Of a stretch of DNA of 64,000 nt, positions 2,772 through 61,882 are shown in pieces. The notes beneath the pieces were generated by a model. The model made no database searches, had not been told where the DNA came from, and worked only from the letters and a program-made list of their open reading frames with translations. Every line of letters begins with the position of its first letter. Position 1 is the first letter of the stretch. The position numbers and the translations under genes were made by a program. This stretch comes from a virus (taxonomy: Duplodnaviria > Heunggongvirae > Uroviricota > Caudoviricetes), in IMG/VR virus record IMGVR_UViG_3300042885_000900; one strand, written 5' to 3'.

Positions 2772-3050
2772 TTATTCTGAAATATCTTCAATACCGGCTT
2801 CAGGAAAATTATCTTGGAGATACCTCAACATTAAATCATTTGAGTTTTTCCCAAATATATCCTCTAATTTATCTTCCATATCATAACTTGAGAATATAAA
2901 ACTTTTACCATTTTTCCACCCATAAACTTCCCCATGATTCTTCCAATTTCGAAACTCCCTATGCTCGGGGACATAAATTAAATTTGTTCGGTGATTGATA
3001 TATTTAACGAACGCATCATACATTCTACTTTCTGTTATTAGTATTTTCAT
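2772..3050 (-). CDS. MKIIITE-family paralog (MKILITESR)
   Basis: Conserved N-terminal motif. Terminator at 2746-2767. Confidence 0.65.
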   Translation of the reverse strand: MKILITESRMYDAFVKYINHRTNLIYVPEHREFRNWKNHGEVYGWKNGKSFIFSSYDMEDKLEDIFGKNSNDLMLRYLQDNFPEAGIEDISE

Positions 3051-4417: not shown

Positions 4418-4477
4418 ATTATTATTTTTTAATTAAAGATACAAATAAAAAACCCCACAATCAAGTGGGGGTATAAA

Positions 4478-9547: not shown

Positions 9548-9550
9548 AAT

Positions 9551-9985
9551 TTATATCTTTATTTTACCAACAAAACATATTATTGACGTTAAACCTAATT
9601 CTCTTAACGCGTTTGCTCTGTGTGTCCCATCAATAATATCATACTCTTTAGTTAAAACTATTGGTGGATATGATTGTAATTCTTTGAATAATTCTATATA
9701 TTCCTCTAAATCATCTTCATCAATTTGATATACATCCATATCTATCTCATCAATAGGTATCTCTCTTACAACATAATACGGGTATTCCTCAATTCTATCC
9801 CCTAAATCCCCCTCCCAAAAATCTTCCTTTCTTTTATAATGTAACTTTTGGACATATGTATAAATTTCCGATTCTTCATATACATCACCAACCATTACAT
9901 TTGTGTTTGTAAATATGTGTGAGGTATTCTCATTAATAACCCCCATCATTTGTTTTATCCTGTTTGTTTGCTCTTGTAAGTTCAT
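9551..9985 (-). CDS. MNLQ-leader family protein with a ParB-like nuclease domain
   Basis: N-terminus MNLQEQTNRIKQMMGVINE. The motif IIDGTHRANALRELG is ParB N-terminal-like. Confidence 0.6.
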   Translation of the reverse strand: MNLQEQTNRIKQMMGVINENTSHIFTNTNVMVGDVYEESEIYTYVQKLHYKRKEDFWEGDLGDRIEEYPYYVVREIPIDEIDMDVYQIDEDDLEEYIELFKELQSYPPIVLTKEYDIIDGTHRANALRELGLTSIICFVGKIKI

Positions 9986-10033
9986 ACATATAAATATAAA
10001 AAAAAGGGAAATGTTACTTTCCCCCTCTTTTAA

Positions 10034-10758: not shown

Positions 10759-10766
10759 TATCTTTG
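10759..10766 (+). promoter_or_regulatory. TATCTTTG box (Bacteroidota -7 consensus TAnnTTTG), 18 nt before the ATG of 10785..11507
   Basis: The same octamer appears upstream of plus-strand genes at 15366-15373 and 17765-17772. Confidence 0.55.
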
Positions 10767-10784
10767 CCCTCTAATTTAATTACT

Positions 10785-11507
10785 ATGAAAAACATACACG
10801 TATTACCAACAGAAAATTCAAGTAGAGTATCTTACAACAAAGATGGTGTTTTAGAATTACATAGACTTCAATGGAGAAAGAATACTCAAAACATCTATAT
10901 CACTTCTGATGAAGAAATTAAAGAAGGGGATTGGTATATTCATAAACAAATCAATTATTTGAGAGTATCTAATTCAAATTCTATACCAATGGATGCTAAA
11001 AAAATCATCCTAACAACAGACCAAGACCTAATCAAAGATGGTGTACAAGCTATTCCTGATGAGTTTTTAGAATGGTTTGTTAAGAATCCAAGTTGTGAGA
11101 AAGTTGAGGTTGTTAAAGAAATTAATAAATCTATATCTGCAAAAGAACCTTATTATAAATACAAAATCATCATTCCAGAAGAAGAACAAAAACAACATCT
11201 TATTGATATGATGGAACAAGATGAGCAATTAGGATTGTATCAAGAACCTAAAAAAGAAACACTTGAAGAAGCTGTTGCTAAAAAATTATATCCACTTAAT
11301 GATGGGTTTCAAGTAATGGATATTGATATTAGTGAAGAATTACAATTAGCTTTCCTTAACGGTGCTAAATGGCAACAAGAAAGAAGTTATAGTAAGGAAG
11401 AGGTTGAAACAATAGCTAAAGATGCTTATACTATGGGTAGAAATAATATTCTTATAGGAGTATTTAATAAATGGTTTGAGCAATTTAAAAAGAAAATAAG
11501 TATATGA
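10785..11507 (+). CDS. Modular-array protein A: N-module (MKNIHxLPT...IYITSDEEIKEGDW...KIILTTDQ) plus C-module (GAKWQQE...FEQFKKK)
   Basis: TATCTTTG box at 10759-10766. Paralogous to 11791.., 13493.. and 18057... Confidence 0.7.
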   Translation: MKNIHVLPTENSSRVSYNKDGVLELHRLQWRKNTQNIYITSDEEIKEGDWYIHKQINYLRVSNSNSIPMDAKKIILTTDQDLIKDGVQAIPDEFLEWFVKNPSCEKVEVVKEINKSISAKEPYYKYKIIIPEEEQKQHLIDMMEQDEQLGLYQEPKKETLEEAVAKKLYPLNDGFQVMDIDISEELQLAFLNGAKWQQERSYSKEEVETIAKDAYTMGRNNILIGVFNKWFEQFKKKISI

Positions 11508-11794
11508 AAAAAACAATTGAAGAAGTTGCTGAAAGATTAGTAAAAGAAACTACATTGTACGGAAGCCAAGAAGCTAGTATTGGAAGTTCTGCTAGAAGTT
11601 ATTTTGAAACAGAATTACGATGTGTGTTGTTGGGTATGAAATGGCAACAAGAACAAGACAAGAAAATGTATAGTGAGTTGGTTGATTTATTGGAAAGATT
11701 AACGACAATTTATAAAGAAGATTGTCATTTAGATATTAAGTACGATAAAAAAAGATTAGAATTTATTGAACAATTTAAAAAGAAATCATTATGA
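11504..11794 (+). CDS. Modular-array protein B. Free-standing C-module (KWQQEQDK...EQFKKK).
   Basis: ATGA overlap with both neighbours. Shared motifs. Confidence 0.6.
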   Translation: MKKTIEEVAERLVKETTLYGSQEASIGSSARSYFETELRCVLLGMKWQQEQDKKMYSELVDLLERLTTIYKEDCHLDIKYDKKRLEFIEQFKKKSL

Positions 11795-12540
11795 AAAACA
11801 TACATTTATTACCAACAGATAAACCAAGTAGGTTATACTTAACAAAAGAAGGGTTTTATTTTTTATTACCTAACATTAAAGGTAATGCTGTGAAATTTCA
11901 ACACATTTACATCACTTCTGATGAAGAAATTAAAGAAGGAGATTGGTTTTATAATATAATATCTTTAAAACCTGAACCATTTAAGGCTTGTGAAAATGGT
12001 AATGGATATGTAAATTGTAGTAAATATTCACATAATAGAATTGATTGTAAAAAAATCATCCTAACAACAGACCAAGAATTAATCAAAGAGGGTGTACAAG
12101 CTATTGATGAGGATTTTTTAGAATGGTTTGTTAAAAATCCAAGTTGTGAAAAGATTGAAGTAAATAAAAGTTATAGCGGTATTTATTATATCAAATATCC
12201 TTACAAAATCATCATTCCACAAGAAGAACCTAAACAAGATGAAATTGATTTTATGGCTAATGAACTAGTTATAGAAAAAGAAAAATTTGAAAGTAAAGAA
12301 ACACTTGAACAAGAAACTTGTAATTTTTGTGGTAAAACATTAAGAGAACAGATGAAAGGTTGTGGTGAAATAACTTGTTATAGACAGTTTTTACCTAAAC
12401 AAGAAACACTTGAAGATTTCTGCACTAGAGAACTATCAAATTTTAATGATAATGTAAGAAATACTCAGTTCGATTTAGGTTTTAGAACTGGAGCCATTAT
12501 TGGACTTAGATTTCCAAAAGAAAGAAGTTATAATGAGTAA
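11791..12540 (+). CDS. Modular-array protein C: N-module plus a Cys-rich segment. It is truncated by an in-frame TAA relative to its paralogs.
   Basis: Paralog alignment. The downstream in-frame remnant ends IIEQFKKK. Confidence 0.6.
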   Translation: MKNIHLLPTDKPSRLYLTKEGFYFLLPNIKGNAVKFQHIYITSDEEIKEGDWFYNIISLKPEPFKACENGNGYVNCSKYSHNRIDCKKIILTTDQELIKEGVQAIDEDFLEWFVKNPSCEKIEVNKSYSGIYYIKYPYKIIIPQEEPKQDEIDFMANELVIEKEKFESKETLEQETCNFCGKTLREQMKGCGEITCYRQFLPKQETLEDFCTRELSNFNDNVRNTQFDLGFRTGAIIGLRFPKERSYNE

Positions 12541-13265: not shown

Positions 13266-13496
13266 ATGGACTTTAGAACAGAATTATCAAAATGGGGCTA
13301 TAATAAAGGAAATTCAGTTGATGTTGAAACATTAATAGATGAAATATTGCCTGAATTATTTCTTAAACAAGAAAGAAGTTATAGTGAGGAAGAGGTTGAA
13401 ACAATAGCTAAAGATGCTTATACTATGGGTAGATATAATATTCTTATAGGAGTATTTAATAAATGGTTTGAACAATTTAAAAAGAAATCATTATGA
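13266..13496 (+). CDS. Modular-array protein F, C-module only. Its 45-aa C-terminus is nearly identical to that of protein A.
   Basis: ERSYSEEEVETIAKDAYTMGRYNILIGVFNKWFEQFKKK. Confidence 0.6.
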   Translation: MDFRTELSKWGYNKGNSVDVETLIDEILPELFLKQERSYSEEEVETIAKDAYTMGRYNILIGVFNKWFEQFKKKSL

Positions 13497-14443
13497 AAAA
13501 CATACATTTATTACCAACAGATAAACCAAGTAGGTTATACTTAACAACACACGAATATATTTTTGAAGAAGGATACTCTTTATCAACTGATGAATGTGAA
13601 AACAAACATATCTACATCACTTCTGATGAAGAAATTAAAAAAGGAGATTGGTATTATCTTCCAAGAACAAATTCAGTTTATAAATGTATTGAAGCAACTG
13701 AATTAAACTTAGAAAGAAGTTATGGCGTAGCTAAAATCATTCTAACAACAGACCCTGAGCTTATCAAAACTGGTGTACAAGCTATTGATGATGAGTTTTT
13801 AGAATGGTTTGTTAAAAATTCAAGCTGTGAGAAGGTTGAAGTAAATAAAAGTTATAGCGGTATTTATTATATCAAATATCCTTACAAAATCATCATTCCA
13901 CAAGAAGAACCTAAACAAGATTGGTATTGTCCTAAATGCCAAAGTTATGTTAGTTCAGAAAGTGTAACATTTGAAGAAACACATCAAATATGTAATACAA
14001 GTGTTGTTATAAAAGAACCTAAACAATCAACTAAAGATAGAATATTATCTGAAACACCTGAGTTAGTAAAACAAAAAGTAAGAGAAACTGCTAATAAGTT
14101 AGTGGAACCTAAACAAGAAACACTTGAAGAAGTCGCATTAAAATTATATCCAATTATTTTAGAATATGATGATTGGGATAAAAATAAGCAATACAGAGAT
14201 GAATGGATTAACGGTGCTAAATGGCAACAAGAAAATATACCCATTTGTATTTATGCTGAAAATATTTACTGTCATATTGAAAATGGAGTTGTAATTGTTG
14301 AGAAAAATGATAAATCGGTAATAAGTTATAGTGAGGAAGATATGAGAAAAGCTATTCAAGAAACAATTACTTTGATGAGGTATAAAGCCACTGAATTTAG
14401 AGAACACGAAAATACTATAATTGGACGATTTAAAAAGAAATAA
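13493..14443 (+). CDS. Modular-array protein G: N-module, CxxC segment and C-module
   Basis: Paralog of A and C. Ends RFKKK. Confidence 0.7.
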   Translation: MKNIHLLPTDKPSRLYLTTHEYIFEEGYSLSTDECENKHIYITSDEEIKKGDWYYLPRTNSVYKCIEATELNLERSYGVAKIILTTDPELIKTGVQAIDDEFLEWFVKNSSCEKVEVNKSYSGIYYIKYPYKIIIPQEEPKQDWYCPKCQSYVSSESVTFEETHQICNTSVVIKEPKQSTKDRILSETPELVKQKVRETANKLVEPKQETLEEVALKLYPIILEYDDWDKNKQYRDEWINGAKWQQENIPICIYAENIYCHIENGVVIVEKNDKSVISYSEEDMRKAIQETITLMRYKATEFREHENTIIGRFKKK

Positions 14444-14737: not shown

Positions 14738-15304
14738 TTATTGGAGTCTCACAGGTATCTTATGTTTGGCACCATCGGTTCTTGAATATACAGCATATTG
14801 TGGTGTCATTATCATTTCATTATGCTCATCACCCAACATATTAATATAATCATTACCTTTGCCAGGTTTAAGATATGCAATAGTCATATGTGGATAATAG
14901 TCAGGGTAATCACTTGTGAATGGAAATTGTTTTAATTCCTCGTTTGTATCATTTAGATTATCCCCCATTATATCATACTTTAATACATCATACTTTGGGC
15001 TGTTGAAACAAGATAGGTTATGAGCTTTACAATTTGTGTATGTATATTTGTTTAACACATTAATTATGTCGTCAATACTCACCTCGTTATCGTGTAATCC
15101 GTATAATAATGTACAATGTGATTCCGGTTCTAAACCAAACCCCTCTTCTTCGGTGTATAAGTCATCAGGGTTTATCTTGTTGTGTAATTCCGTAATAGTA
15201 TCAGGGTTAAAGTATAACATTGCACAAGAATATGGATATACTTGTTTGTTCTCATTTATCCCCATCATTGTTTTGATTTTTGTTATCTGTTCGTTTAATT
15301 CCAT
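14738..15304 (-). CDS. 2H phosphoesterase (LigT-like) carrying a variant of the MNLQ leader (MELNEQITKIKTMMGINE)
   Basis: Two H-x-T-x motifs are present, HCTLLYGL and PHMTIAYL. Confidence 0.6.
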   Translation of the reverse strand: MELNEQITKIKTMMGINENKQVYPYSCAMLYFNPDTITELHNKINPDDLYTEEEGFGLEPESHCTLLYGLHDNEVSIDDIINVLNKYTYTNCKAHNLSCFNSPKYDVLKYDIMGDNLNDTNEELKQFPFTSDYPDYYPHMTIAYLKPGKGNDYINMLGDEHNEMIMTPQYAVYSRTDGAKHKIPVRLQ

Positions 15305-15390
15305 ATATGTTTCTTTTTATTTATAATAATAAGTATTTTTTACCACGTTATCAATAGGAATGTTTTATCTTTGTATGATATTTATTTAAT

Positions 15391-15987: not shown

Positions 15988-16452
15988 TTATTTGTAATAG
16001 TTTAATGTGTCAAGCATAAATAGGAAAACATCATTTAATGTGTGATTATCAAAATTTTTGTATTTCTCCTTAAAATCTGATTCATGATAACCCTCGTAGT
16101 AAACATCTATTACAGCAGATTCCGGACCAAAATACTCTATCTGTCGTACCTCATCGCCTGATATACTATATGGGACAGGACTTAAACCTAATTCATATAT
16201 AGAAATTCCGATTGTATTATAAGGTTTTGCTAAATGTTGAACCGAATCTTTAATGAAATCAATCTTATCTTCTTTTGTTAAATTAAAACTATCACCATAC
16301 ATATTCTTAATAGTATCATAACCACCGAAAAGTTTAATGGTGTAATATAACCCCATCTTATCAATCATTTTTTGTATCTTTGTGGTCTTATCATCCTCAT
16401 TGATAACCCTCATCATTTGGTGGATTCTATGTATATTCTCTTGTAAGTTCAT
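15988..16452 (-). CDS. MNLQ-leader family protein. Start taken at the MNLQENIHRIHQMM Met.
   Basis: Conserved leader. The nucleotide context ttgtaagttcat is shared by all members. Confidence 0.6.
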   Translation of the reverse strand: MNLQENIHRIHQMMRVINEDDKTTKIQKMIDKMGLYYTIKLFGGYDTIKNMYGDSFNLTKEDKIDFIKDSVQHLAKPYNTIGISIYELGLSPVPYSISGDEVRQIEYFGPESAVIDVYYEGYHESDFKEKYKNFDNHTLNDVFLFMLDTLNYYK

Positions 16453-16453
16453 A

Positions 16454-17227: not shown

Positions 17228-17724
17228 TCTAAATTAAGTATTTCTTGTTTAATCTTTAAGGTTTCCTGTTTTAGTAAATCAAAATACTTATATAACTCAT
17301 CATTTCTATCGTATAACTTTTCTATTTCCTCTGTATAGTCCTCATCAGGGTGTGTGTTATATAAAAGTTCAAACACTCTATCATCATTTTTATCGTGCTC
17401 TCTTCTATAATTGTTATACTCAATCAATTTGGATATATCAATATTTAAATTCTTATCTTTGACGTAAGATATTAGTTTTTCAACTAGTGAGTCCGATGTA
17501 AAACTGTTCTCATCATCTAAGAACGATTCCACGGAACCAATCTGAAATTCAAATTTGTCTATGTTGTTTATAATGTTTTCTATGCTCGTGTTTATAGTCA
17601 CATCATTGTCCTTTGCAGACTTGTTTAACCCCTTCTCTATTTGTTTTACAGTGTATGACGATTTAACCTCGGAGATAATCCCCATCACTTCCTGTATTCT
17701 AATTATATTTTCCTGTAAGTTCAT
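17224..17724 (-). CDS. MNLQ-leader family protein. Function unknown.
   Basis: N-terminus MNLQENIIRIQEVMGIISE. Confidence 0.6.
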   Translation of the reverse strand: MNLQENIIRIQEVMGIISEVKSSYTVKQIEKGLNKSAKDNDVTINTSIENIINNIDKFEFQIGSVESFLDDENSFTSDSLVEKLISYVKDKNLNIDISKLIEYNNYRREHDKNDDRVFELLYNTHPDEDYTEEIEKLYDRNDELYKYFDLLKQETLKIKQEILNLE

Positions 17725-17788
17725 AATAATAAATATATTGTTTGGTAGAATAGTTTTTATTTCTTATCTTTGCTCTCTAAATAATAAT

Positions 17789-18056: not shown

Positions 18057-18866
18057 ATGAAAAACATACACTTATTACCAACACAATCAAAAACAAGATT
18101 ATTTTTATCTGACTATGGTAAAATACTTAATTTAGCGAGTTATCCTGAAACATTTTACACTACAGGTCAAAACATCTACATCACTAATTCAGAAGAAATT
18201 AAAGAAGGAGATTATGTATGTGCTTCAGGTGGATTTAGATTTGTTAAAACTTTAAATAATGATGCAAGAACATTTAAAGATGATGGAATTGTAAGCAAAG
18301 AAAGTCCATCAAACAGTTGTCATTTATCTAATTATAAAAAAATCATACTAACAACAGACCAAGACTTAATTAAAGATGGTGTACAAGCTATTGATAATGA
18401 TTTCCTTGAATGGTTTGGTAAGAATCCAAGTTGTGAGGAGGTTGATTTTGAGGTTGTTGATGATAATATACAATGGTATAAAATAATCAATCCAAGAAAG
18501 AATTTCTATTGTGGTGATGAAGTTGATTATGGTGATAAATGTTCAGAGCAATGTGTCCAATGTGTAAACGCCACCGGTGTTGATTACGGATATCTTCCGA
18601 AAGAACATGTTGAATTTATTAATGATAATATTGATGAATTTGATGAAAAGATTAAGGAGTTCAAACAAATAGACCAAAATAATCCTGTCACAAGAGGTAG
18701 TACTGCTTTAGTATATAAACAAGAAACACTTGAAGATATTAAACTTGAAGAAGTGGTTGGGAGTAAGCATTGTCGATATTCGGTCATCGAAAATAAGTTA
18801 TCTGTACTCTATAGAAATCAAGAACAAATTTTAAAAGCTATTAAAATGTTAAACAATGGAAAATAA
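18057..18866 (+). CDS. Modular-array paralog: N-module, a Cys-rich segment and the KQETLED junction
   Basis: MKNIHLLPT...NIYITNSEEIKEGD...KKIILTTDQDLIKDGVQAIDNDFLEWF. Confidence 0.7.
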   Translation: MKNIHLLPTQSKTRLFLSDYGKILNLASYPETFYTTGQNIYITNSEEIKEGDYVCASGGFRFVKTLNNDARTFKDDGIVSKESPSNSCHLSNYKKIILTTDQDLIKDGVQAIDNDFLEWFGKNPSCEEVDFEVVDDNIQWYKIINPRKNFYCGDEVDYGDKCSEQCVQCVNATGVDYGYLPKEHVEFINDNIDEFDEKIKEFKQIDQNNPVTRGSTALVYKQETLEDIKLEEVVGSKHCRYSVIENKLSVLYRNQEQILKAIKMLNNGK

Positions 18867-52011: not shown

Positions 52012-54279
52012 TTAGGGAATACAGGTGTTTGATTTTACGAAGGTACCTGTAGATAAAGTATATGTAAAAAATCCAACACAATCAGTACCTGAACACGTAG
52101 CATTCGATATTAATATTGTAGAATCAGCAAATGTATAAGTCGTCCCTATTTGTGTACCTCCGGAAGTTATAAAACCATAATTACCATCACTAATCATTGT
52201 TCCACCAGAATAAGCTTTCATTTGTATTTGAACAATGCCCGTACCTGTATTTGGAGTGTTTCTATACCAATTCGCTCGACAATTTAACTGTATTGAGGTA
52301 ACACTTCCACTAAGTTTTAATTGTTTAATATCTACATACACACTTTCGGAACCACCCGTATTTTGATTATCACCACCCCACCATAAATTAGGACCAACAC
52401 GTTTACCTGACGCCAGATTTCCAGTAGTACAAAACCCAACTGGGTTAAAAGTATTCGCATATGTTGTCCCCGTCACATTATTCACATATAAATAAGTAAG
52501 AGTGTCTAAATCTTTCCCACTAGTAATTGGGAATGTATATGTAAAAACAAGATAATCAGCATTAAGTATTATCGGAGCCTTTGTTGGCGTAACCGTTGGC
52601 GTATATGTTGGTGTAGGTGTTTGAGTTGGTGTTTTAGTCGGTGTAAGCGTTTGTGTTGGTGTTTGTGATGGTGGGAGCACATCTTTAATTAAACGAACTG
52701 AAAAACCAACTGTTTTATTAGTATTAATTCTACTAACACTTTGACTACTATTACTCATCTGACGACTCCACGAACTAACAGTATTAGCCGATGATGAAGT
52801 CCACCAATACCCACCATTACGAATGTCAGTAAATACCCCGCTAATACTTCTATTACCTCCTGGAAGAGCAGTAAAACCATAAGTGTTAACAGCACCCGTA
52901 TTTGGAGTGTTCCAATATGTGGTACCAGTTCCTTTCAATATTCCCCCTGATACCGATTCACCACCTAAAAAAGTTGTTAAAGTAGTCCATTCAGCATCTG
53001 TAGGAATATGATAACCTAACGGAGCTAATCCACCATTTGCGGTATTATTAACCGCATACCAATTATATAACATACCATAAGTATTTCCTGTTGTTGTACT
53101 ACCGCTGTAATAACACCAAGCCCCCGTGGTTAATCCTGACCAAATAGCCGGGTCAGTCACTTTTGGAATTACAGTACCATCTCTATAAGTAGGAACATTT
53201 AAATTACACGCCGTCCAAGTTTGAGTTCCAATTGTCACATCATTTAATGAACAAAGATATGGTGAGGGTGCATTTAAATTAGTCGTTAAACAACTAGGAA
53301 CTTGAGACGCACCAGCAATTGTTTTATTAATTTCTGTAACATATACTAAATTGTATGGCGAATTTTTATTAATTATATATAATTTTGTATTTATACCATC
53401 AAGATTAACCGATGTTATGTAAATATTTCCATTCGACTCAAAAATACCATAAGTATTACAAGGAATTGTTAGAACAACATCAACTTCTAAAGTCCCTGTT
53501 AAATAATTCCACTGACTTAAATAACAAATCTCATTAACAGGGTCATTATTAAGTACCAAAAATTTATTAGTTGTTGTTTTATAAAAATCACCAGTAATAG
53601 TTCTACCAGCCGTTAAAGGAAATTTAGTTGTCATAACAGGACTTACACCTGATACATCTATTTCAACAACTTCGTTAGGATTATTGAGTGTATTTACCGC
53701 TAAAATAACTGTGTCCGAAATCGCCGCAAGACCCGCAGAATTACTAAAATTTAATGGAGAGGGGATATTACGATTAAATATCGCACTAAATGATGGTAAA
53801 GTTATATTATATTCGTTAAAACTAATACCAGTTGGTTCCCAAAGTTTATTTGAGGTATGAGCAATATCATTACCTCCAGAATATTCCGCCGGCATTGTTA
53901 ATAATGTTGAAGTGTTTGCAGAAACATTATAATAATAAACTTTATCTTGATTATCATTATATAGTACAGCACAAGTCGGTACAACAGGATTACTCGTTGG
54001 TGTTGGTGTTTTTGTCGGTGTTATACTTGGCGTTGGAGTTTGAGTTTTAGTGATTGTTGGTGTTGGTGTTTGAGTTGGTGTAACTGTTGGAGTTAATGTT
54101 TTTGTTGGTGTAACTGTTGGAGTTTGCGATGGCGATGCATTTGGTGTTTGAGTTGGTGTTGGGGTACCGATTGGTAATAAAACACCATTAATTCTAATGG
54201 TGTTTGGTATAGGATTATTGTTGGCTTTTTTCATAGAAGCCAATAATACATTATCAAATTTTTTAAGTAATTGTGCCAT
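52012..54279 (-). CDS. Fibre/receptor-binding-like protein with two Pro/Thr linkers, a beta-rich middle region shared with 59423..61882, and an internal Fibrobacter succinogenes major paralogous (FISUMP) domain
   Basis: PT linkers (TPTQTPTPTITKTQTPTPS...). FISUMP motifs GMLYNWYA, GYHIPTDAEWTTL, GFTALPGG, GFSVRLIKD. Confidence 0.75.
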   Translation of the reverse strand: MAQLLKKFDNVLLASMKKANNNPIPNTIRINGVLLPIGTPTPTQTPNASPSQTPTVTPTKTLTPTVTPTQTPTPTITKTQTPTPSITPTKTPTPTSNPVVPTCAVLYNDNQDKVYYYNVSANTSTLLTMPAEYSGGNDIAHTSNKLWEPTGISFNEYNITLPSFSAIFNRNIPSPLNFSNSAGLAAISDTVILAVNTLNNPNEVVEIDVSGVSPVMTTKFPLTAGRTITGDFYKTTTNKFLVLNNDPVNEICYLSQWNYLTGTLEVDVVLTIPCNTYGIFESNGNIYITSVNLDGINTKLYIINKNSPYNLVYVTEINKTIAGASQVPSCLTTNLNAPSPYLCSLNDVTIGTQTWTACNLNVPTYRDGTVIPKVTDPAIWSGLTTGAWCYYSGSTTTGNTYGMLYNWYAVNNTANGGLAPLGYHIPTDAEWTTLTTFLGGESVSGGILKGTGTTYWNTPNTGAVNTYGFTALPGGNRSISGVFTDIRNGGYWWTSSSANTVSSWSRQMSNSSQSVSRINTNKTVGFSVRLIKDVLPPSQTPTQTLTPTKTPTQTPTPTYTPTVTPTKAPIILNADYLVFTYTFPITSGKDLDTLTYLYVNNVTGTTYANTFNPVGFCTTGNLASGKRVGPNLWWGGDNQNTGGSESVYVDIKQLKLSGSVTSIQLNCRANWYRNTPNTGTGIVQIQMKAYSGGTMISDGNYGFITSGGTQIGTTYTFADSTILISNATCSGTDCVGFFTYTLSTGTFVKSNTCIP

Positions 54280-54290
54280 TTTATTTAGAT

Positions 54291-57200
54291 TTACAGTACC
54301 TCAACCCAACTATTATCCGGACAGAAATATATTATGTCGTTTGTTGCGTCAGTACAATAACCAATGATTCTAACATTATTACCAGTAGCCGGTGGTGATG
54401 TCGAACTAAACTCACCCGCAGTTGTTGATACATATAATATAGAACCTAAAGTCACACTAGTAAATGATGTTGTACTAAATTTAGCATAACCTCTTAACAA
54501 CATTCCACTCGCAATTGTTGTCCCTAACGCCATACCTAATAATCCTGTTGACCCAGAAACTGTTGTAGCATTTGCCAATGTCCAAGTACCTCCAGTACTA
54601 TAATAATAAACTGACCCGGCAGTTAATGTTGCTCCAATACCAAAATAAACAACTTCTCCGGCACCACCATTAGATGTTGGAACTGTAAATATTTTATTGT
54701 TTGTAATATTAATATTATTGACAAATGTTGTACACCCTCTATCTGCAGTAATGTTAGAACCTACAATAGTTGCAAAAGTAATACCTGATGGTATTCGATT
54801 ACTACTACCACCAAGAATTGACGAAAAACAACTTCCTATACAGTTATTATAACCACCCGCAATAGTTGACCAATTACCATATATACGATTCGACACTCCA
54901 CCTGCAATAGTTGAATAACTTCCCACAATTTTTTGAAATTCAGGATTACCATTAACATAAGTAAATCCACCACCACCAATTGTTGAACAATTTCCACTAA
55001 CAGAAACATAACATCCACCACCAATGGTTGAAGCATTACCGGAAACCCTATTAAAACGACCTCCACTAACTGTTGAATAAGTAGCACCTAATAAAATCTC
55101 ATTACCACAACCACCACCAATAAATGAATCATTCCCTCTAGCGGTATTACCTTGACCACCCCCGATTGTCGCAAAACTTCCAGAAGCAGTATTACTATAA
55201 CCATACCACCCACCACACTGGAAGCGTTGACCACCCCCTCCAATAGTTGAAGCCATCCCTGACGCTTTGTTATAACCACCTCCACCAATTGTTGAGGTAC
55301 TACCGGAAGCAATGTTTCCACCACCACCACCTACTGTTGAAACATAATTAGACACTGTGTTGATTCTACCTCCACCAATGGTTGAATAGTTACCCGTCGC
55401 ACAGTTTTTACATCCACCACCAATTGTTGAATTTACACCATAAGCAGTATTTCCAACACCACCACCAATAAATGAATTACTTCCACCAAAACTAGATTTT
55501 GTTAGATTTCTAACTAATGGTTGATTTCCAATTGCAAACACATCAACCGAAGCTGTTGCTCCGGTAACATTTACTGTGGTGAATCCTGCGGAGTAAGTTG
55601 ATGCCGTTACCACAACATTTCTTGAACAAGTATTATTATCAAAAGTTAATAATAAATCATTAGTTACAAAACAACTAGTTAAATTACCAGTAAACCTTAA
55701 CGAACAATTACCAAGGACTGTAGATGTTTCTATTTTTGGAGAATTACCCACCATATTTAAAACACCTCCGTTAATACCTCCTTGATACCCACAGACAATA
55801 TTCACATGACCACCACCTACAAAAGCAAATTTGGTAGCCGATTTATTATTATTACCTGAAACTATCCCTGAACCATAACCTGTTGCGTAATTACCACAAC
55901 CACCTAAAATAGCCGCTCTAATACCATTGGTCTTATTAGAAAGACCACCACCAATAACAGCATCTTCATGAACTGTTATATTATTACATCTACCACCACC
56001 TATAAACGATGCCGCACTTGTATTACAATTGTAAGAACCTCCAACAACAACTGATTGATTTGAAGACACTGTATTACTAAGTCCACCTCCGAGAAATCCA
56101 CCACCTGAACCACAACTAAGAATCTTACCACAATATCCACCGGCAATTGTTGTTGCAACACCATAGTTTCTATTACAATTTCCTCCACCAACTACAGAAC
56201 AGTTACTTCCTGAACTTACACAATTATTTTTCCCACCACCAATTGTTGAATAAGTACCAATAGCATTATTACATCGACCCCCACTAACTGTTGAAATAAA
56301 ACCAAAAGCAGTATTTGTAAAACCACCACCAATGAATGAACGATTACCAGAAGCAGTATTACCTTGACCACCACCAATAAACGATTGTTCACTTATATTA
56401 CAATTGTATTGACCTCCAACAATAACTGAACTATATGAAGATACTGTATTACAATAACCACCACCTATAAACCCACCTACTCCATTACAATTAAGTATAC
56501 TATTAGTATTACCACCGGCGATAGTTGATGAGTGACCATAATTTTTATTTTGGTATCCACCACCAACAACAGAATATTCTTTTTTTATACAGTTTAATTT
56601 ACCTCCACCGATAAATGAATTGTTATTATTATCAATAATGTTGGAACAACCACCACCTATGGTTCCATAAGATGTAGTGACACCACTTATTATATTACAT
56701 TTACCACCACTGATGGTTGAACTACAATGGTATTGACCAAAAATTTTATTAGAAAGACCACCACCAATAACTGAATTTTGTATTTGACGACCATATATAG
56801 TATTTGATAACCCACCACCTATAGTATTGTCATATAAATAACCATTATTACCACTATTAGATAGACCCATTTTGTTTAAATGACCACCACTTATAGTATT
56901 ACGACCACCTATATACAAAATATTAGACAACATTGTATTATCACTACCACCACCAATAAAAGATTCACAATTTGAACTTATAGTATTCGAACAACCACCG
57001 CCAATAAATGAACGACTAGCACCTGATAAAATATTATTACAACCACCCACGATTGTTCCATGAGGAGATAAAATATCTACTATATTAAGTTGACCACCTA
57101 AAGATGCTGAACAATTTCCATTTGATTGATTACTAACACCACATCTAACCGATGAGTATGTACCTACACCTAATACGATTACCGGAGGTGTTGGGCTAAA

Positions 57201-59081
57201 ACCACTCGTTCCTGATGAACCTGCCGCACCTGTTGCTCCCGATGTTCCTGACGAACCACTAGTACCTGATGTACCTCTTGTTCCTGAAGAACCACTAGTT
57301 CCTGAAGAACCACTTGTTCCTGAAGAACCACTTGTTCCGGATGTACCTCTTGTTCCCGATGTACCACTAGAACCATTTGCACCCGATGTTCCACTAGAAC
57401 CTGTTGCTCCCGATGTTCCTGACGAACCACTAGTACCTGATGTACCTCTTGTTCCTGACGAACCACTTGTTCCGGATGTACCTCTTGTTCCCGATGTACC
57501 ACTAGAACCATTTGCACCCGATGTTCCACTAGAACCATTTGCACCCGATGTTCCACTAGAACCCGTCGCTCCCGATGTTCCTGACGAACCACTTGTTCCG
57601 GATGTACCTCTTGTTCCTGAAGAACCACTTGTTCCGGATGTACCTCTTGTTCCCGATGTACCACTAGAACCATTTGCTCCCGATGTTCCACTAGAACCCG
57701 TCGCTCCCGATGTTCCTGATGAACCACTTGTTCCCGAAGAACCACTAACCCCACTAGCACCAGATGTCCCTGACGAACCACTAGTACCTGAAGTACCTCT
57801 CGTTCCTGAAGTTCCACTAGAACCACTAACACCACTAGTCCCCGAAGACCCACTATTTCCACTAGTACCTGAAGTTCCTCTCGTTCCTGAAGTCCCACTA
57901 GAACCACTAATACCACTTGTTCCTGAAGAACCACTACCACCAGTGCTTCCGGATGTTGTAACCAATAAACCATTAGAACCCACACACACCAAACATCCTG
58001 ATGAACTAGTGAAACTACATACAGATAAATCATTAACAAATGTGGTACATGCTCTGTTTGCGGTTATATTACTACCAATAATATTGGTATGTGTAAATGA
58101 GGAAGATATTGTATTACCTATACCACCTAATATTGATGAACAATTACCATTTGCACAATTACAACAACCTCCACCAATTACAGAATAACAACTGGTTATA
58201 GTATTTAGATAACCACCACCAATTGATGAATAAGATGCACTAATACAAAGTTTATTACCATAACCACCCGATATAGTTCCTAGTCCAGATAAAACACGAT
58301 TAGAATAACCACCACCAATGAATGACCTAGTACCTGAAACTATATTATCATGACCTCCGCCAATAAATGAGGAAGATACTAACTCACAAATTATATTAGA
58401 TAAACCACCACCAATTGATGAGGTAGTTCCTGATACGCGATTACTAAAACCACCACCAATAAATGAAAAACATTCTGATACGGTATTTCCACTACCTCCT
58501 AATGCTGCCGAAAAATTTCCTGATGCGGTATTTCCAACACCACATCTAACAGATGAGTTAATACCACCACCTAATATTATTACCGGAGGATTAGGACTTG
58601 TTCCACTAGTACCAGCCGAACCCGTTATACCTGAAGACCCCGATGAACCATTAATTCCACTAGTACCTGAAGAACCACCGGCACCTGATGTCCCCGATGT
58701 CCCTGATGTCCCACTATTACCCGATGTTCCTGATGTTCCCGATGTCCCACTATCACCTGATGAACCACTAGGTCCTGAAGTACCATTAACACCTGAAGTA
58801 CCATTAGCACCTGAAGTACCATTAGCACCAGATGTTCCCGATGTACCATTAATAAAACCTGTTATTGTAACTATACCACCCGTTGAGTCGTATAGTTCCA
58901 ATGTTGTTGCAGCAGAGAAATAAGTTCCTCCTGTAATATATGGGAATATATTTAATACTTGACCTATTTCGGCCTTATATGATGACCCTTGAGGACTTTG
59001 CGTCGTATCATAAGGTTTAACAATATGTATTAAGTCATTAACAGTTACGCCAGTCGCTAAAAGTCTATCGGTTAATCTCAT
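54291..59081 (-). CDS. Giant fibre-like protein, 1596 aa. It has collagen-like G-X-Y tracts, long beta-helix-like IGGGxxN repeats (about 14-aa period) and a C-terminal globular domain.
   Basis: GTSGTSGSSGTRGTSG... tracts, and more than 50 copies of S(F/I)IGGG(x)xN. Confidence 0.8.
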   Translation of the reverse strand: MRLTDRLLATGVTVNDLIHIVKPYDTTQSPQGSSYKAEIGQVLNIFPYITGGTYFSAATTLELYDSTGGIVTITGFINGTSGTSGANGTSGANGTSGVNGTSGPSGSSGDSGTSGTSGTSGNSGTSGTSGTSGAGGSSGTSGINGSSGSSGITGSAGTSGTSPNPPVIILGGGINSSVRCGVGNTASGNFSAALGGSGNTVSECFSFIGGGFSNRVSGTTSSIGGGLSNIICELVSSSFIGGGHDNIVSGTRSFIGGGYSNRVLSGLGTISGGYGNKLCISASYSSIGGGYLNTITSCYSVIGGGCCNCANGNCSSILGGIGNTISSSFTHTNIIGSNITANRACTTFVNDLSVCSFTSSSGCLVCVGSNGLLVTTSGSTGGSGSSGTSGISGSSGTSGTRGTSGTSGNSGSSGTSGVSGSSGTSGTRGTSGTSGSSGTSGASGVSGSSGTSGSSGTSGATGSSGTSGANGSSGTSGTRGTSGTSGSSGTRGTSGTSGSSGTSGATGSSGTSGANGSSGTSGANGSSGTSGTRGTSGTSGSSGTRGTSGTSGSSGTSGATGSSGTSGANGSSGTSGTRGTSGTSGSSGTSGSSGTSGSSGTRGTSGTSGSSGTSGATGAAGSSGTSGFSPTPPVIVLGVGTYSSVRCGVSNQSNGNCSASLGGQLNIVDILSPHGTIVGGCNNILSGASRSFIGGGCSNTISSNCESFIGGGSDNTMLSNILYIGGRNTISGGHLNKMGLSNSGNNGYLYDNTIGGGLSNTIYGRQIQNSVIGGGLSNKIFGQYHCSSTISGGKCNIISGVTTSYGTIGGGCSNIIDNNNNSFIGGGKLNCIKKEYSVVGGGYQNKNYGHSSTIAGGNTNSILNCNGVGGFIGGGYCNTVSSYSSVIVGGQYNCNISEQSFIGGGQGNTASGNRSFIGGGFTNTAFGFISTVSGGRCNNAIGTYSTIGGGKNNCVSSGSNCSVVGGGNCNRNYGVATTIAGGYCGKILSCGSGGGFLGGGLSNTVSSNQSVVVGGSYNCNTSAASFIGGGRCNNITVHEDAVIGGGLSNKTNGIRAAILGGCGNYATGYGSGIVSGNNNKSATKFAFVGGGHVNIVCGYQGGINGGVLNMVGNSPKIETSTVLGNCSLRFTGNLTSCFVTNDLLLTFDNNTCSRNVVVTASTYSAGFTTVNVTGATASVDVFAIGNQPLVRNLTKSSFGGSNSFIGGGVGNTAYGVNSTIGGGCKNCATGNYSTIGGGRINTVSNYVSTVGGGGGNIASGSTSTIGGGGYNKASGMASTIGGGGQRFQCGGWYGYSNTASGSFATIGGGQGNTARGNDSFIGGGCGNEILLGATYSTVSGGRFNRVSGNASTIGGGCYVSVSGNCSTIGGGGFTYVNGNPEFQKIVGSYSTIAGGVSNRIYGNWSTIAGGYNNCIGSCFSSILGGSSNRIPSGITFATIVGSNITADRGCTTFVNNINITNNKIFTVPTSNGGAGEVVYFGIGATLTAGSVYYYSTGGTWTLANATTVSGSTGLLGMALGTTIASGMLLRGYAKFSTTSFTSVTLGSILYVSTTAGEFSSTSPPATGNNVRIIGYCTDATNDIIYFCPDNSWVEVL
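57180..57960 (-). repeat. Collagen-like G-X-Y (GTSGSSGTRG...) coding tandem repeats, about 230 residues
   Basis: Near-perfect 18- and 27-nt tandem repeats are visible in the DNA. A second shorter tract lies at 58600-58862. Confidence 0.7.
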
Positions 59082-59113
59082 TTTTTAAATAATATTTATA
59101 TGTGATAAATAGT

Positions 59114-59419
59114 TTAATTTTGGAAATCGTACAAGATATTATCCATAAATTCAAAATCTACCAAATCTTGGAATTCCTTACCGGATACAGTAACAACACA
59201 AGAATAGATTTTAAACTCCTCACAACCATCTGAAGTAATTAATTTAATACCCAATGAAGGAGCATTATCAAATTGCGGTGGTAAAAATATATTTACATAC
59301 GGAGAAGGAGGTACGTTAATGATTGACACCAAAATGCATTGGTTTCCGTATATATCACAAGCATAAACTGTGTATGGAGGATTTAACCCTGATACTGAAT
59401 ATATCGCAACTGCTTTCAT
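59114..59419 (-). CDS. Hypothetical small protein. Possibly a fibre accessory or chaperone, judged only from its position.
   Basis: ORF track. Confidence 0.4.
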   Translation of the reverse strand: MKAVAIYSVSGLNPPYTVYACDIYGNQCILVSIINVPPSPYVNIFLPPQFDNAPSLGIKLITSDGCEEFKIYSCVVTVSGKEFQDLVDFEFMDNILYDFQN

Positions 59420-59422
59420 CTA

Positions 59423-61882
59423 TTAATCTTTTATTAATCTTACTGAGAAACCATATATTTTATTGTAACCATATCTATTAGCAACACTGGTATTAGCAGC
59501 CAAATATAGAAGCCAAGCAAAATCACTATCAACTTCTGTTGAACTCCAAAACCCACCATTGTTTCTAATATTATTAAATCCTCCAAAGTTTGAACGCCAA
59601 CCTCCAGGTAATCCTGTAAAACCGCTAGAGTTAGAGGCTCCTGTATTGGGACTTAACCAGTGTACTGTACCTGTTTCTTTTAATTTACCACCCGCAACAC
59701 TATTTCCACCTAAATAAGTGGTTAAAGTTGTCCATTCTGTATCAGTTGGAATGTGATATCCTGATGGTGCCAATTGTTTTCTTTGACCTACATCAGTTTT
59801 TGAGGCCTCATTCCAAATTCCCATCACAGCATACCAATTATATAACTTACCATATGTGTCTCCCGTTGTTGTACTACCGCTGTAATAACACCAAGCACCT
59901 GTTGTTAATGTCGCCCACTGGCTTGTTCCTGTGATTTGTGGAATTAATGTACCATCTCTATAAGTAGGAACATTTAAATTACACGCCGCCCAAGTTTGAG
60001 TTCCAATTGTTACATCATTCAATGAACAAAGATATGATGAGGAAACATTTAAATTAGTTAATAAACAACTAGGTATTTGAGACGCTCCTGAAATAACTTT
60101 TGAAACACTATTAACAGATGTTATATTATATGGATAATTTTTACCAATCATATATAGATTTGTGGTTATACCATCAAGGTTAACCGATGTTATATAGATA
60201 TTACCACTATCCTCGAAAATACCATATGTCGCACAACTATTATTCGGTAATAATAATTCAACATCAACTTCTAAAGTTCCTGTTAAATAATTCCATTGAC
60301 TTAAATAACATTTATCAGTAAAAGCATCAGTATTAAGTACCAAAAATTTATAAGCGAGTGTTCTATAAAAATCTCCAGTGATATATCTACCAACTATTAA
60401 AGGAAATTTAGTTGTCATAACAGGACTTACACCTGATATATCTATTTCAACAACTTCGTTAGGGCTATTAAAAGTATTTACCGCTAAAATAACTGTGTCC
60501 GAAATCGCCGCAAGACCCGCAGAATTACTAAAATTTAATGGAGAGGGGATATTACGATTAAATATCGCACTAAATGATGGTAAAGTTATATTATATTCGT
60601 TAAAACTAAGACCAATTGGTTCCCAAAGTTTATTTGAGGTATGAGCAATATCATTACCACCAGAATATTCTGCAGGCATTGTTAATAATGTTGAAGTATT
60701 TGTCGAAACATTATATGACCAAACTTTATCTTGATTATCATTATATATTACAGCACAAGTCGCTATAACAGGACAAGATTCAATATCAGTAAAATTAATT
60801 ATTGAATCAATAACTCCCAAAGTGGTATGAACAACATATCTACCAGGATATGTATATCCAGGTGTTGGTCCTAAATCAGTATCTAAAATAAATTTAGTCG
60901 TTCCAAGATATATCGTGTTATTAAAATTATATAATTGAACCCCAATACCAATATTTACAAATGTTTTAAAATTAAAACCATTTGGGTCACCATTTAAATT
61001 CACATAATAACTTTCCCATAAACATTTAGCCTCGTAATCCGTTGTTGAATTATTAATATTATGGGTTGTCTCATTTTGAGTAACAGATGTTGAAAAATAA
61101 GTATATATCGATGGTGTTGCCGGTTTTGTTGATGAAGGTGTCATTGTCATTGTTGGAGTCATCGTCATTGTTGGAGTTATTGTAGGTGTTTGAGTTGGAG
61201 TTTGGGAAGGTGACGCACCAGGTGTTGAGGTCATAGTAGGTGTTATAGTAGGTGTAGGTGTCATGGTAGGAGTTTGAGTTGGCGTTGGAGTTTTAGATAC
61301 TTCGGCAGGGTCAGTTAAAGTACATACCGTTATTGCCGTATAATCAAGCCAAAAATCTGTTGTTGTTGCCGTATATAACCCGGCAGGTAAATTCTGAATT
61401 GCCGGTGATATACTACCTTTATTATCTACACCCCCATTCCACCATACAGTTTTATACGGTGGTGTACCACCACTTATTGTAACCGACGCCTTACCATCAA
61501 TAGCTCCAGGGTATGATGGGTCTCTTGTATCATTTGGATTACAAGCAACCCCCATTGGGAAAATGGTTATTACATTACATTCATTTGATAGAGTATATGC
61601 TGTTATTACTGGTGATGGCGGAGGAAAACAACTAACGGAGTCATCACTACCAATACAAGTAACACAATCATCATAGTTTGTTAATATCGCATCACTTCCA
61701 TTATATATTTTTGAATTACTTGGGATAGGTTCATCAATCACATATCCACAAGCACTAAATTCAGGTGTTATTATAGAATAAACCTGATTAAGATTAGGTG
61801 TATCACCAACATAATTACTTAACCCAAAATAATTATCTGAATTATTAGATTTAGTACAACAAGTTTGAAAATAATAAGTCAT
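59423..61882 (-). CDS. Fibre/receptor-binding-like protein with a PT linker and a C-terminal FISUMP domain. Its C-terminal 445 aa are paralogous to the middle of 52012..54279.
   Basis: GKLYNWYA ... GYHIPTDTEWTTL ... GFTGLPGG ... GFSVRLIKD. Confidence 0.75.
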   Translation of the reverse strand: MTYYFQTCCTKSNNSDNYFGLSNYVGDTPNLNQVYSIITPEFSACGYVIDEPIPSNSKIYNGSDAILTNYDDCVTCIGSDDSVSCFPPPSPVITAYTLSNECNVITIFPMGVACNPNDTRDPSYPGAIDGKASVTISGGTPPYKTVWWNGGVDNKGSISPAIQNLPAGLYTATTTDFWLDYTAITVCTLTDPAEVSKTPTPTQTPTMTPTPTITPTMTSTPGASPSQTPTQTPTITPTMTMTPTMTMTPSSTKPATPSIYTYFSTSVTQNETTHNINNSTTDYEAKCLWESYYVNLNGDPNGFNFKTFVNIGIGVQLYNFNNTIYLGTTKFILDTDLGPTPGYTYPGRYVVHTTLGVIDSIINFTDIESCPVIATCAVIYNDNQDKVWSYNVSTNTSTLLTMPAEYSGGNDIAHTSNKLWEPIGLSFNEYNITLPSFSAIFNRNIPSPLNFSNSAGLAAISDTVILAVNTFNSPNEVVEIDISGVSPVMTTKFPLIVGRYITGDFYRTLAYKFLVLNTDAFTDKCYLSQWNYLTGTLEVDVELLLPNNSCATYGIFEDSGNIYITSVNLDGITTNLYMIGKNYPYNITSVNSVSKVISGASQIPSCLLTNLNVSSSYLCSLNDVTIGTQTWAACNLNVPTYRDGTLIPQITGTSQWATLTTGAWCYYSGSTTTGDTYGKLYNWYAVMGIWNEASKTDVGQRKQLAPSGYHIPTDTEWTTLTTYLGGNSVAGGKLKETGTVHWLSPNTGASNSSGFTGLPGGWRSNFGGFNNIRNNGGFWSSTEVDSDFAWLLYLAANTSVANRYGYNKIYGFSVRLIKD

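What the first reader, a model, noticed from the sequence alone, without database searches (positions are those of the whole stretch)
53245..60760. Near-identical DNA blocks shared by two fibre genes suggest recent gene conversion or duplication.
Residues 102-533 of 52012-54279 align with residues 375-819 of 59423-61882. Within this region there are runs of about 100-250 nt that are identical or differ by only a few substitutions. For example 53640-53890 matches 60420-60670, and 53170-53260 matches 59945-60040. The flanking parts are unrelated. This mosaic pattern is what recombination between paralogous fibre genes would produce. It is also a hazard for assembly collapse.
Basis: seen in the sequence. 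Interest (0 to 1): 0.55.

Follow-up and report, generated by a model that had tools for sequence, protein, structure and literature searches.

The report
Gene conversion between two paralogous phage genes
Two neighbouring genes of a large uncultured phage share an old duplicated beta-propeller plus lectin-like module, and short stretches of it are still being copied from one gene to the other, an ordinary process that also misleads short-read assemblers.

Summary
Gene A (52012-54279, minus strand) residues 96-533 align with gene B (59423-61882, minus strand) residues 369-819 at 71% amino-acid and 86% nucleotide identity. The flanks are unrelated. The longest perfect run is 136 nt (53690-53825 = 60474-60609), not 250.

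The shared module is a six-bladed beta-propeller followed by a FISUMP (PF09603) domain.

Three results point to gene conversion rather than selection or misassembly:
- Synonymous divergence rises from 0 to 0.18 in the first ~120 codons to 0.88 in the FISUMP domain (permutation p<1e-4).
- Upstream of A residues 220-227, A groups with paralog B at 48 of 54 informative sites. Downstream, it groups with its ortholog from a related phage at 203 of 242.
- Strains about 99.9% identical differ in these genes almost only by paralog-matching changes, and one pair of variants sits in A in one strain and in B in two others.

The two-copy layout recurs in independent assemblies. Three public contigs carry an A-5'/B-3' hybrid that switches inside the 136-nt run, most likely a repeat-induced misjoin.

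There is no reverse transcriptase and no adenine-biased mismatch pattern, so it is not a diversity-generating retroelement. The "fibre" role is inferred, not shown. This is a well-documented case of a known process.

The parts
52012..54279 (-). Gene A, 755 aa. Layout: N-terminal segment 1-40, Pro/Thr linker 41-95, beta-propeller X 96-340, FISUMP 343-533, Pro/Thr linker 534-566, C-terminal domain Y 567-755.
   Evidence: ORF. Pfam PF09603 at residues 348-532, E=3e-38. phrog_24956 at residues 551-740. The identical protein P0171 occurs on 10 public contigs, the longest 312,799 nt.
59423..61882 (-). Gene B, 819 aa. Layout: N-terminal domain 1-195, Pro/Thr linker 196-249, domain Z 250-368, beta-propeller X 369-616, FISUMP 619-819.
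   Evidence: ORF. Pfam PF09603 at residues 624-818, E=1e-38. The exact protein occurs on at least 14 public contigs. The N-terminal domain recurs with other C-termini in P0121-P0125.
52681..53994 (-). Shared module, copy in A (propeller 53260-53994, FISUMP 52681-53253).
   Evidence: AlphaFold2 model with pLDDT 86.7. Foldseek matches to six-bladed YWTD, Kelch and designed propellers.
59426..60778 (-). Shared module, copy in B (propeller 60035-60778, FISUMP 59426-60028).
53614..53991 (-). Main conversion tract in A (residues 97-222, about the first three propeller blades). It corresponds to 60398-60775 in B.
   Evidence: A-B is 91% identical in amino acids here, against 70% for A and its ortholog P0004. 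dS is 0.10 for A-B and 0.39 for A-ortholog. 48 of 54 informative sites group A with B.
53690..53825 (-). 136-nt perfectly identical core in A (= 60474-60609 in B). It is the switch point of the three hybrid contigs.
   Evidence: In strain L013/L015 A carries B's base at 53826 and 53831; I calculate from the run lengths that this extends the identical run to about 185 nt.
60474..60609 (-). 136-nt perfectly identical core in B.
   Evidence: Strains L016 and L017 carry G>A at 60506 and 60518. Strain L014 carries the same two changes at the homologous A positions 53722 and 53734.
53599..53622 (-). Breakpoint, between A residues 220 and 227. Here A's affinity switches from paralog B to ortholog L012/P0004.
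   Evidence: Maximum chi-square 112.7, permutation p<2e-4.
53470..53532 (-). Second, short patch where A resembles B (A residues 250-270).
   Evidence: Nucleotide identity in residues 255-269 is 0.91 for A-B against 0.73 for A-ortholog, with a run of informative sites grouping A with B.
53182..53271 (-). High-identity island at the propeller/FISUMP junction (A residues 337-366). It is conserved in A, B and the ortholog alike.
   Evidence: A-B 0.91-0.98, A-L012 0.98, B-L012 0.89-0.96. dS is 0.15. It is either an older conversion or a constraint; this was not resolved.
54291..59081 (-). Collagen-like gene between the paralogs, 1596 aa, with 9-nt and 45-nt periodic repeats. Its length varies between strains.
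   Evidence: PF01391, E=2e-37. PHROG tail-fibre families match over residues ~74-652, largely its collagen-like stretch. It is 1479 aa in L014. Many public contigs end inside it.
59114..59419 (-). 101-aa ORF between B and the collagen-like gene.
   Evidence: It is conserved in all related contigs. No family match.

Best explanation
A and B are old paralogs in a very large uncultured phage. Both lie on the minus strand, 6.78 kb apart, on either side of a collagen-like gene.

Each carries the same two-domain module, a six-bladed beta-propeller followed by a FISUMP domain. The module is attached by Pro/Thr-rich linkers to different N-terminal and C-terminal domains. The modular layout is that of a receptor-binding protein.

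Homologous recombination during replication repeatedly copies short patches, tens to a few hundred nucleotides long, from one copy into the other. This is non-reciprocal gene conversion.

The largest and most recent tract covers the first ~125 codons of the propeller. The simplest reading is that it went from B into A in this lineage, after the lineage split from the one represented by contig L012.

The distal FISUMP domains have escaped homogenisation and are strongly diverged. They presumably give the two proteins different ligand specificities.

What is shown: the homology, the domain make-up, the mosaic of synonymous divergence, the breakpoint against an ortholog, and the paralog-matching strain polymorphisms. 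What is inferred: the direction of transfer, the recombination machinery, and the virion or receptor-binding role.
For: Homology and domains:
- Homology between the modules.
- FISUMP above Pfam's cut-off in both proteins.
- Propeller fold from a confident model.

Synonymous divergence:
- dS in 30-codon windows runs from 0 (A residues 157-186) and about 0.16 (residues 97-216) to 0.5-0.6 (residues 247-336) and more than 0.65 or saturated (residues 397 onward).
- Among codons that keep the same amino acid, 12.8% differ before residue 408 and 55% after (permutation p<1e-4).
- There is a run of 58 unchanged synonymous codons (p=3e-4).

Comparison with the ortholog:
- Contig L012 is syntenic and 85-98% identical to the window over 39.8-53.9 kb.
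- Amino-acid identity A-B against A-ortholog is 91 against 70% in segment 1, 67.5 against 85% in segment 2, and 61 against 87% in FISUMP.
- dS for A-B against A-ortholog is 0.10 against 0.39 in segment 1 and 0.88 against 0.23 in FISUMP.
- Informative sites grouping A with B number 48 of 54 to the left of the breakpoint and 39 of 242 to the right (p<2e-4).

Strain level:
- The window and L013/L015 differ at 7 sites in 14.8 kb. Three of these lie in A's module, and all three carry B's base.
- The same two G>A variants occur in A of L014 and in B of L016 and L017 at homologous positions.
- L011 carries an A-type patch of about 37 nt inside B-type sequence. The patch is flanked by shared runs of only 11-14 nt.

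Layout:
- The B / 101-aa ORF / collagen gene / A layout was assembled independently in ENA ERZ27271740 (k141, 68 kb) and JGI 3300037519 (52 kb).

Precedent:
Against: - Direction of transfer rests on one ortholog whose contig begins at A residue 129. The B gene of that lineage is unknown. A replacement of segment 1 in the L012 lineage combined with an A-to-B transfer here is not excluded.
- In segment 1, the L012 sequence is at an intermediate distance from A and B (dS 0.39-0.47), not the distance of 0.8-0.9 seen between the old paralogs. Its own history there is therefore unclear.
- All strain data come from short-read metagenome assemblies, where consensus errors between paralogs could imitate small conversion patches.
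- No direct evidence places A or B in the virion. PHROGs give only families of unknown function for them.
Confidence: 0.8

Rival explanations
1. There was no recombination. The 5' part of the module is simply under much stronger purifying selection, on the protein or on the DNA/RNA, than the 3' part.
For: dN also rises from 5' to 3'. The island at A residues 337-366 is conserved in A, B and the ortholog alike.
Against: - Synonymous sites show the same gradient.
- The ortholog differs from A by 30% of residues in exactly the stretch where A and B are 91% identical, so that stretch is not intrinsically constrained.
- Strain variants match the paralog.
Confidence: 0.04
2. The repeat or its mosaic is an assembly artefact, meaning one gene duplicated or two genes blended by the assembler.
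For: Hybrid A-5'/B-3' contigs exist in three public assemblies and switch inside the 136-nt run. So assemblers do stumble at this point.
Against: - The copies differ by 14% overall and have unrelated flanks.
- The same two-copy layout occurs in independent assemblies at 99.3-100% identity, including one at k=141, which exceeds the 136-nt run.
- The exact B protein is found on at least 14 contigs.
Confidence: 0.03
3. Segment 1 was brought in from a third phage. Either it entered both A and B, or the L012 lineage replaced its own segment 1. Intragenomic conversion was not involved.
For: The propeller is a mobile module. It is found fused to DUF285, to PA14 and to other domains in related viruses. 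Related viral contigs carry up to four propeller copies within 6 kb.
Against: - It needs at least two events where intragenomic conversion needs one.
- It does not explain variants shared across paralogs or paralog-matching variants among strains about 99.9% identical.
- No database protein is closer than 70% to segment 1 apart from A and B themselves.
Confidence: 0.1
4. The blocks are the template and variable repeats of a diversity-generating retroelement acting on the FISUMP domain.
For: Fib_succ_major belongs to a recognised class of targets of these elements (PMC5758913).
Against: - No reverse transcriptase appears among the 25 listed of 30 Pfam families hit by 68 ORFs of 100 aa or more in the window.
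- Mismatches between A and B are not biased to adenines.
- There is no extra copy of the FISUMP 3' ends.
- The near-identical part lies in the propeller, not at the C-terminus of the lectin-like domain.
Confidence: 0.01

Closest known systems
LtfA/LtfB lateral tail fibre genes of T5-like phages DT57C and DT530 (PMC4728585)
   Same: Two adjacent fibre genes in one phage share identical sequence. Homologous recombination between those stretches was observed and produced a fused gene.
   Different: There the outcome was a deletion selected in the laboratory and the fibre role was proven genetically. Here the outcome is patchy non-reciprocal transfer seen across natural strains. The protein domains (propeller plus FISUMP) are unrelated to Ltf, and the fibre role is only inferred.
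Domain shuffling and recently emerged mosaicism in phage receptor-binding proteins (PMC10684548). Also the mosaic tail fibre genes of T-even and P2-like phages, from my own knowledge.
   Same: The pattern is a conserved N-terminal anchor with exchangeable distal modules and near-identical fragments in otherwise unrelated proteins. The propeller and FISUMP modules here recur with many partners.
   Different: Those studies mostly describe exchange between genomes. Here the exchange is between two genes of one genome and is traceable at strain level.
Interparalog gene conversion in bacterial gene families, such as tufA/tufB and pilE/pilS-type antigenic variation (from my own knowledge)
   Same: Non-reciprocal patch transfer between repeated genes, giving low synonymous divergence in tracts and polymorphisms shared between copies.
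   Different: There is no sign here of silent cassettes or of a dedicated recombinase. Both copies are full-length genes.
FISUMP/DUF1566-type target proteins of diversity-generating retroelements (PMC5758913)
   Same: The same Pfam domain, which is expected to bind ligands at a surface.
   Different: The defining parts of such an element are absent from the window.

Membership tests
Pfam PF09603 Fib_succ_major (FISUMP, TIGR02145) | Match to the family HMM above the gathering score, covering the full model. | tested here: met
   A scores 132.3 bits and B 133.8 bits against a cut-off of 33.9. Both match model positions 1-187 of 187.
Six-bladed beta-propeller fold | A confident all-beta model that superposes on known six-bladed propellers. 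| tested here: met
   The propeller part of the model has pLDDT of about 79-97. Foldseek PDB hits include LRP6 YWTD, KLHL12 Kelch and designed SAKe6/Pizza6 proteins at E of 1e-7 to 1e-5. This rests on a predicted model, not a solved structure.
Interparalog gene conversion | Synonymous divergence between the paralogs is significantly heterogeneous along the alignment. | tested here: met
   Maximum chi-square 54.4, permutation p<1e-4. A run of 58 unchanged synonymous codons, p=3e-4.
Interparalog gene conversion | Within the tract the paralogs are closer to each other than to orthologs. Outside the tract the reverse holds. | tested here: met
   This is based on one ortholog, P0004 on L012.
Interparalog gene conversion | Variants among close strains match the paralog or are shared between the paralogs. 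| tested here: met
   3 of 3 variants in A of L013/L015 equal B's base. The same two G>A changes occur in A of L014 and in B of L016/L017. L011 carries a 37-nt A-type patch in B-type sequence.
Interparalog gene conversion | Non-reciprocity and direction of transfer. | not testable with these tools
   This needs B orthologs from the L012 lineage or single-molecule data. Transfer from B to A is the simplest reading only.
Phage tail fibre / receptor-binding protein | Presence in the virion and a role in adsorption. | not testable with these tools
Phage tail fibre / receptor-binding protein | A conserved N-terminal anchor joined to exchangeable distal domains. | tested here: met
   B residues 1-195 recur at 50-86% identity with other C-termini. 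A residues 1-335 recur with DUF285 (P0042, P0065).
Phage tail fibre / receptor-binding protein | Sequence or fold match to a known fibre family. | tested here: not met
   PHROGs give only families of unknown function for A and B. The PDB sequence search gave one linker-only hit. The model of B's N-terminus was too poor to search with, pLDDT 44. The neighbouring gene's tail-fibre matches cover residues ~74-652, largely its collagen-like stretch.
Diversity-generating retroelement | A reverse transcriptase gene nearby. | tested here: not met
   No RVT family appears among the 25 listed of 30 Pfam families hit by 68 ORFs of 100 aa or more. Only this 64-kb window was tested.
Diversity-generating retroelement | A template/variable repeat pair that differs at adenines. 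| tested here: not met
   The mismatch spectrum is unbiased. There is no third copy of the region.

The most novel reading that the evidence does not exclude
The A-5'/B-3' hybrid gene found in three independent assemblies may be real rather than a graph artefact. One of these contigs runs collagen-gene 3' end, hybrid, 101-aa ORF, collagen-gene 5' end, and wraps a 6784-nt cycle whose overlapping ends differ at 3 of 278 positions.

If real, part of the phage population carries a tandem duplication or an excised circle of the cassette (101-aa ORF, collagen gene, hybrid gene). Unequal crossing-over at the 136-nt identical core would generate it.

This would give the population a standing, reversible polymorphism in the number and make-up of its putative receptor-binding genes.
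Probability: 0.15. Interest if true: 0.5.

Novelty: new member of a known kind. Interest (0 to 1): 0.3.

Why it matters
It gives a clean natural example, resolved to strain level, of how a large phage keeps one part of two putative host-recognition proteins uniform while the distal lectin-like domains diverge.

It also has a practical use. It flags a 136-185-nt perfect repeat that produces hybrid genes, such as the database proteins P0005 and P0167, in public short-read assemblies built with k of 127 or less. Those hybrids could be mistaken for real domain shuffling.

It does not reveal a new mechanism.

Tried and rejected
- Megablast of 50-64 kb against GenBank phages gave no match.
- tblastn of A against phages found only distant FISUMP hits at 34-41% identity.
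- PHROGs and Pfam on neighbouring ORFs gave no structural hallmark, so the position of the locus within a virion module could not be established.
- The PDB sequence search gave only a linker match.
- The AlphaFold2 model of B residues 1-368 was too poor (pLDDT 44) for a fold search.
- No tRNA genes were found in the window.
- The diversity-generating retroelement idea was tested and rejected.
- A single copy duplicated by the assembler was rejected.
- Selection alone was rejected on synonymous sites and the ortholog comparison.
- I could not decide whether the hybrid contigs are misjoins or real recombinants. All three switch inside the 136-nt run. That run is at least as long as k=127 (contig name k127_) and shorter than the k=141 implied by the name k141_ of the assembly that resolved the locus. 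This favours misjoins.


Full report
**Observation.**
Two minus-strand ORFs share a long internal module. They are A (52012-54279, 755 aa) and B (59423-61882, 819 aa).
- BLASTP aligns A 96-533 with B 369-819 at 71% identity.
- blastn gives 86% over 949 nt.
- The rest of the two proteins is unrelated apart from Pro/Thr-rich linkers.
- The longest perfect run is 136 nt (53690-53825 = 60474-60609), followed by runs of 43, 42 and 40 nt.
- A codon alignment shows identity falling from 93-100% at the start of the module to 50-70% at its end.

**What the genes are.**
Both proteins end their shared module with a full-length FISUMP domain (PF09603, E about 1e-38). The roughly 245 residues before it had no family.

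An AlphaFold2 model built from 39 homologs has pLDDT 86.7 and shows an all-beta domain. Foldseek places this domain with six-bladed propellers of the YWTD, Kelch and designed SAKe6/Pizza6 kinds. Among viral models, it matches uncultured tailed-phage proteins named for the FISUMP domain, uncharacterised proteins of Virus NIOZ-UU157 and Kelch-like phage proteins.

Domain layouts:
- A: short N-terminus, linker, propeller, FISUMP, linker, C-terminal domain Y (phrog_24956, function unknown).
- B: N-terminal domain 1-195, linker, domain Z, propeller, FISUMP.

Database relatives reuse each piece with other partners:
- A residues 1-335 occur with DUF285.
- The propeller occurs with PA14.
- B's N-terminal domain occurs with other C-termini.
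- Domain Y occurs behind other modules.
- Related IMG/VR contigs carry up to four propeller copies within 6 kb.

Between A and B lie a 101-aa ORF and a 1596-aa collagen-like gene. The PHROG tail-fibre matches of that gene cover residues ~74-652, largely its collagen-like stretch.

The window has small ORFs on both strands, 31.5% G+C, and genes such as Acb1, NUDIX, a poly(A)-polymerase-like enzyme, thioredoxin and methyltransferases. A protein identical to A sits on a 312.8-kb contig. A very large phage is therefore likely.

The receptor-binding role of A and B is an inference from their modular layout and their neighbourhood.

**Is the mosaic due to recombination?**

Synonymous sites.
- In 30-codon windows, dS is 0 to 0.18 over A residues 97-216 and 0.5-0.6 over residues 247-336.
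- It dips to 0.15 at residues 337-366 and is above 0.65 or saturated from residue 397.
- Among codons that keep the same amino acid, 12.8% differ before residue 408 and 55% after (permutation p<1e-4).
- A run of 58 unchanged synonymous codons has p=3e-4.

Comparison with an ortholog.
- Contig L012 (JGI 3300021164) is syntenic and 85-98% identical to the window. Its protein P0004 is the ortholog of A.
- In A residues 97-222, A-B is 91% identical and A-P0004 is 70%.
- In residues 226-340 the figures are 67.5% and 85%.
- In FISUMP they are 61% and 87%.
- dS for A-B against A-ortholog is 0.10 against 0.39 in segment 1, and 0.88 against 0.23 in FISUMP.
- Informative sites switch between residues 220 and 227. 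To the left, 48 of 54 group A with B. To the right, 39 of 242 do so (p<2e-4).
- A second short patch where A resembles B lies at residues 250-270.

The converted tract is therefore younger than the split of the two phage lineages. The duplication is much older.

**Strain-level evidence.**
- The exact B protein occurs on at least 14 contigs from many samples.
- The window differs from L013/L015 at 7 sites in 14.8 kb. Three of these lie in A's module, and all three carry B's base. Two of them flank the 136-nt run; I calculate from the run lengths that this lengthens the run to about 185 nt in that strain.
- Strain L014 has G>A at 53722 and 53734 in A. Strains L016 and L017 have the same two changes at the homologous positions 60506 and 60518 in B.
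- Contig L011 carries an A-type patch of about 37 nt inside B-type sequence. The patch is flanked by shared runs of only 11-14 nt. From my own knowledge, this is shorter than the smallest k-mers such assemblers normally use.

These patterns are what ongoing short-patch conversion produces.

**Assembly issues.**
The layout B, 101-aa ORF, collagen gene, A is reproduced in ENA ERZ27271740 (k141, 68 kb) and in JGI 3300037519 (52 kb) at 99.3-99.95% identity. The two copies differ by 14%. A duplicated single copy is therefore excluded.

Three other contigs encode a 546-aa hybrid (P0005/P0167):
- L011, from ENA ERZ922586, assembled at k127.
- L020, from JGI 3300042401.
- L021, from JGI 3300001272.

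The hybrid is A-type up to 53826 and B-type from 53689, so the switch lies inside the identical run.

L020 runs collagen-gene 3' end, hybrid, 101-aa ORF, collagen-gene 5' end. It wraps a 6784-nt cycle, and its ends match at 98.9% over 278 nt.

The 136-nt run is at least as long as 127 and shorter than 141. A loop in the assembly graph is therefore the simplest explanation. A real tandem duplication or an excised circle cannot be excluded without reads.

Most contigs break inside the collagen repeats, and the length of that gene varies between strains.

**Rivals.**
- Selection alone fails on synonymous sites and on the divergent ortholog.
- A diversity-generating retroelement fails on three counts. 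No reverse transcriptase is seen in the window, the mismatches are not biased to adenines, and there is no template copy. FISUMP is nevertheless a known target class for such elements (PMC5758913).
- Import of segment 1 from a third phage needs more events and does not explain the strain data.

**Mechanism (inferred).**
The two genes are direct repeats with 136-185 nt of perfect identity, 6.78 kb apart. They are substrates for strand invasion during phage replication.

Repair of the resulting heteroduplex, or synthesis-dependent annealing, transfers patches without crossing over. Crossovers would instead give a B-5'/A-3' deletion or an A-5'/B-3' duplication.

Falling identity towards the FISUMP domain limits how far the tracts spread. 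The distal domains therefore stay different.

**Comparison with what is known.**
The closest precedent is recombination between identical sequences in ltfA and ltfB of T5-like phages (PMC4728585). The general background is shuffling of fragments among receptor-binding proteins (PMC10684548).

This case is a new member of a known kind. It is well supported, it is useful as a warning for assemblies and domain-shuffling surveys, and it is mechanistically ordinary.

Noticed in passing
window 10764-11507, 11791-12540, 13493-14443, 18057-18866 (+ strand): A second family of four paralogous genes, with N-termini of the form MKNIH.LPT. It has its own mosaic of near-identical blocks. For example, 11374-11495 = 13366-13487 (98%), 12052-12240 = 13733-13921 (92%), and 11766-11862 = 13468-13564 (92%, including sequence upstream of the start codon). 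Exchange between paralogs may be common in this genome.
   Followed up: partly
window 54291-59081 (-): The collagen-like gene has 9-nt (Gly-X-Y) repeats at about 57147-57950 and many 45-nt repeats. Its length differs between strains: 1596 aa here and 1479 aa in L014. Most public contigs of this phage end inside it.
   Followed up: partly
L020 1-7062 (JGI 3300042401), L021, L011: These contigs encode an A-5'/B-3' hybrid gene. L020 wraps a 6784-nt cycle, and its overlapping ends differ at 3 of 278 positions. It is either a graph loop through the 136-nt repeat or a real duplication or circle.
   Followed up: partly
window 9488-9548, 9926-9986, 15245-15305, 16393-16453, 17665-17725 (- strand gene starts): Five minus-strand genes share a conserved 5' end of about 60 nt, at 64-80% identity. 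This is another small paralog family.
   Followed up: no
window 2712-2775 and 4419-4482: A repeated A-rich stretch followed by a G+C-rich hairpin (AAAAAACCCCAC...GTGGGG), resembling an intrinsic terminator.
   Followed up: no
window, ORFs of 100 aa or more: Auxiliary genes typical of large phages: anti-CBASS Acb1, NUDIX, poly(A)-polymerase head domain, a non-specific endonuclease, ferritin/rubrerythrin, nitroreductase, thioredoxin/glutaredoxin, glycosyltransferases and an SPFH domain. No tRNA genes were found. Contigs upstream of the window add DnaJ, an Hc1 histone-like protein, a LAGLIDADG-like ORF and an LRR protein.
   Followed up: no
window 60378-60644 (+): An 88-aa GTG ORF lies antisense to gene B and overlaps the near-identical tract. 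No ORF of 80 aa or more lies antisense to A. It is probably spurious.
   Followed up: no
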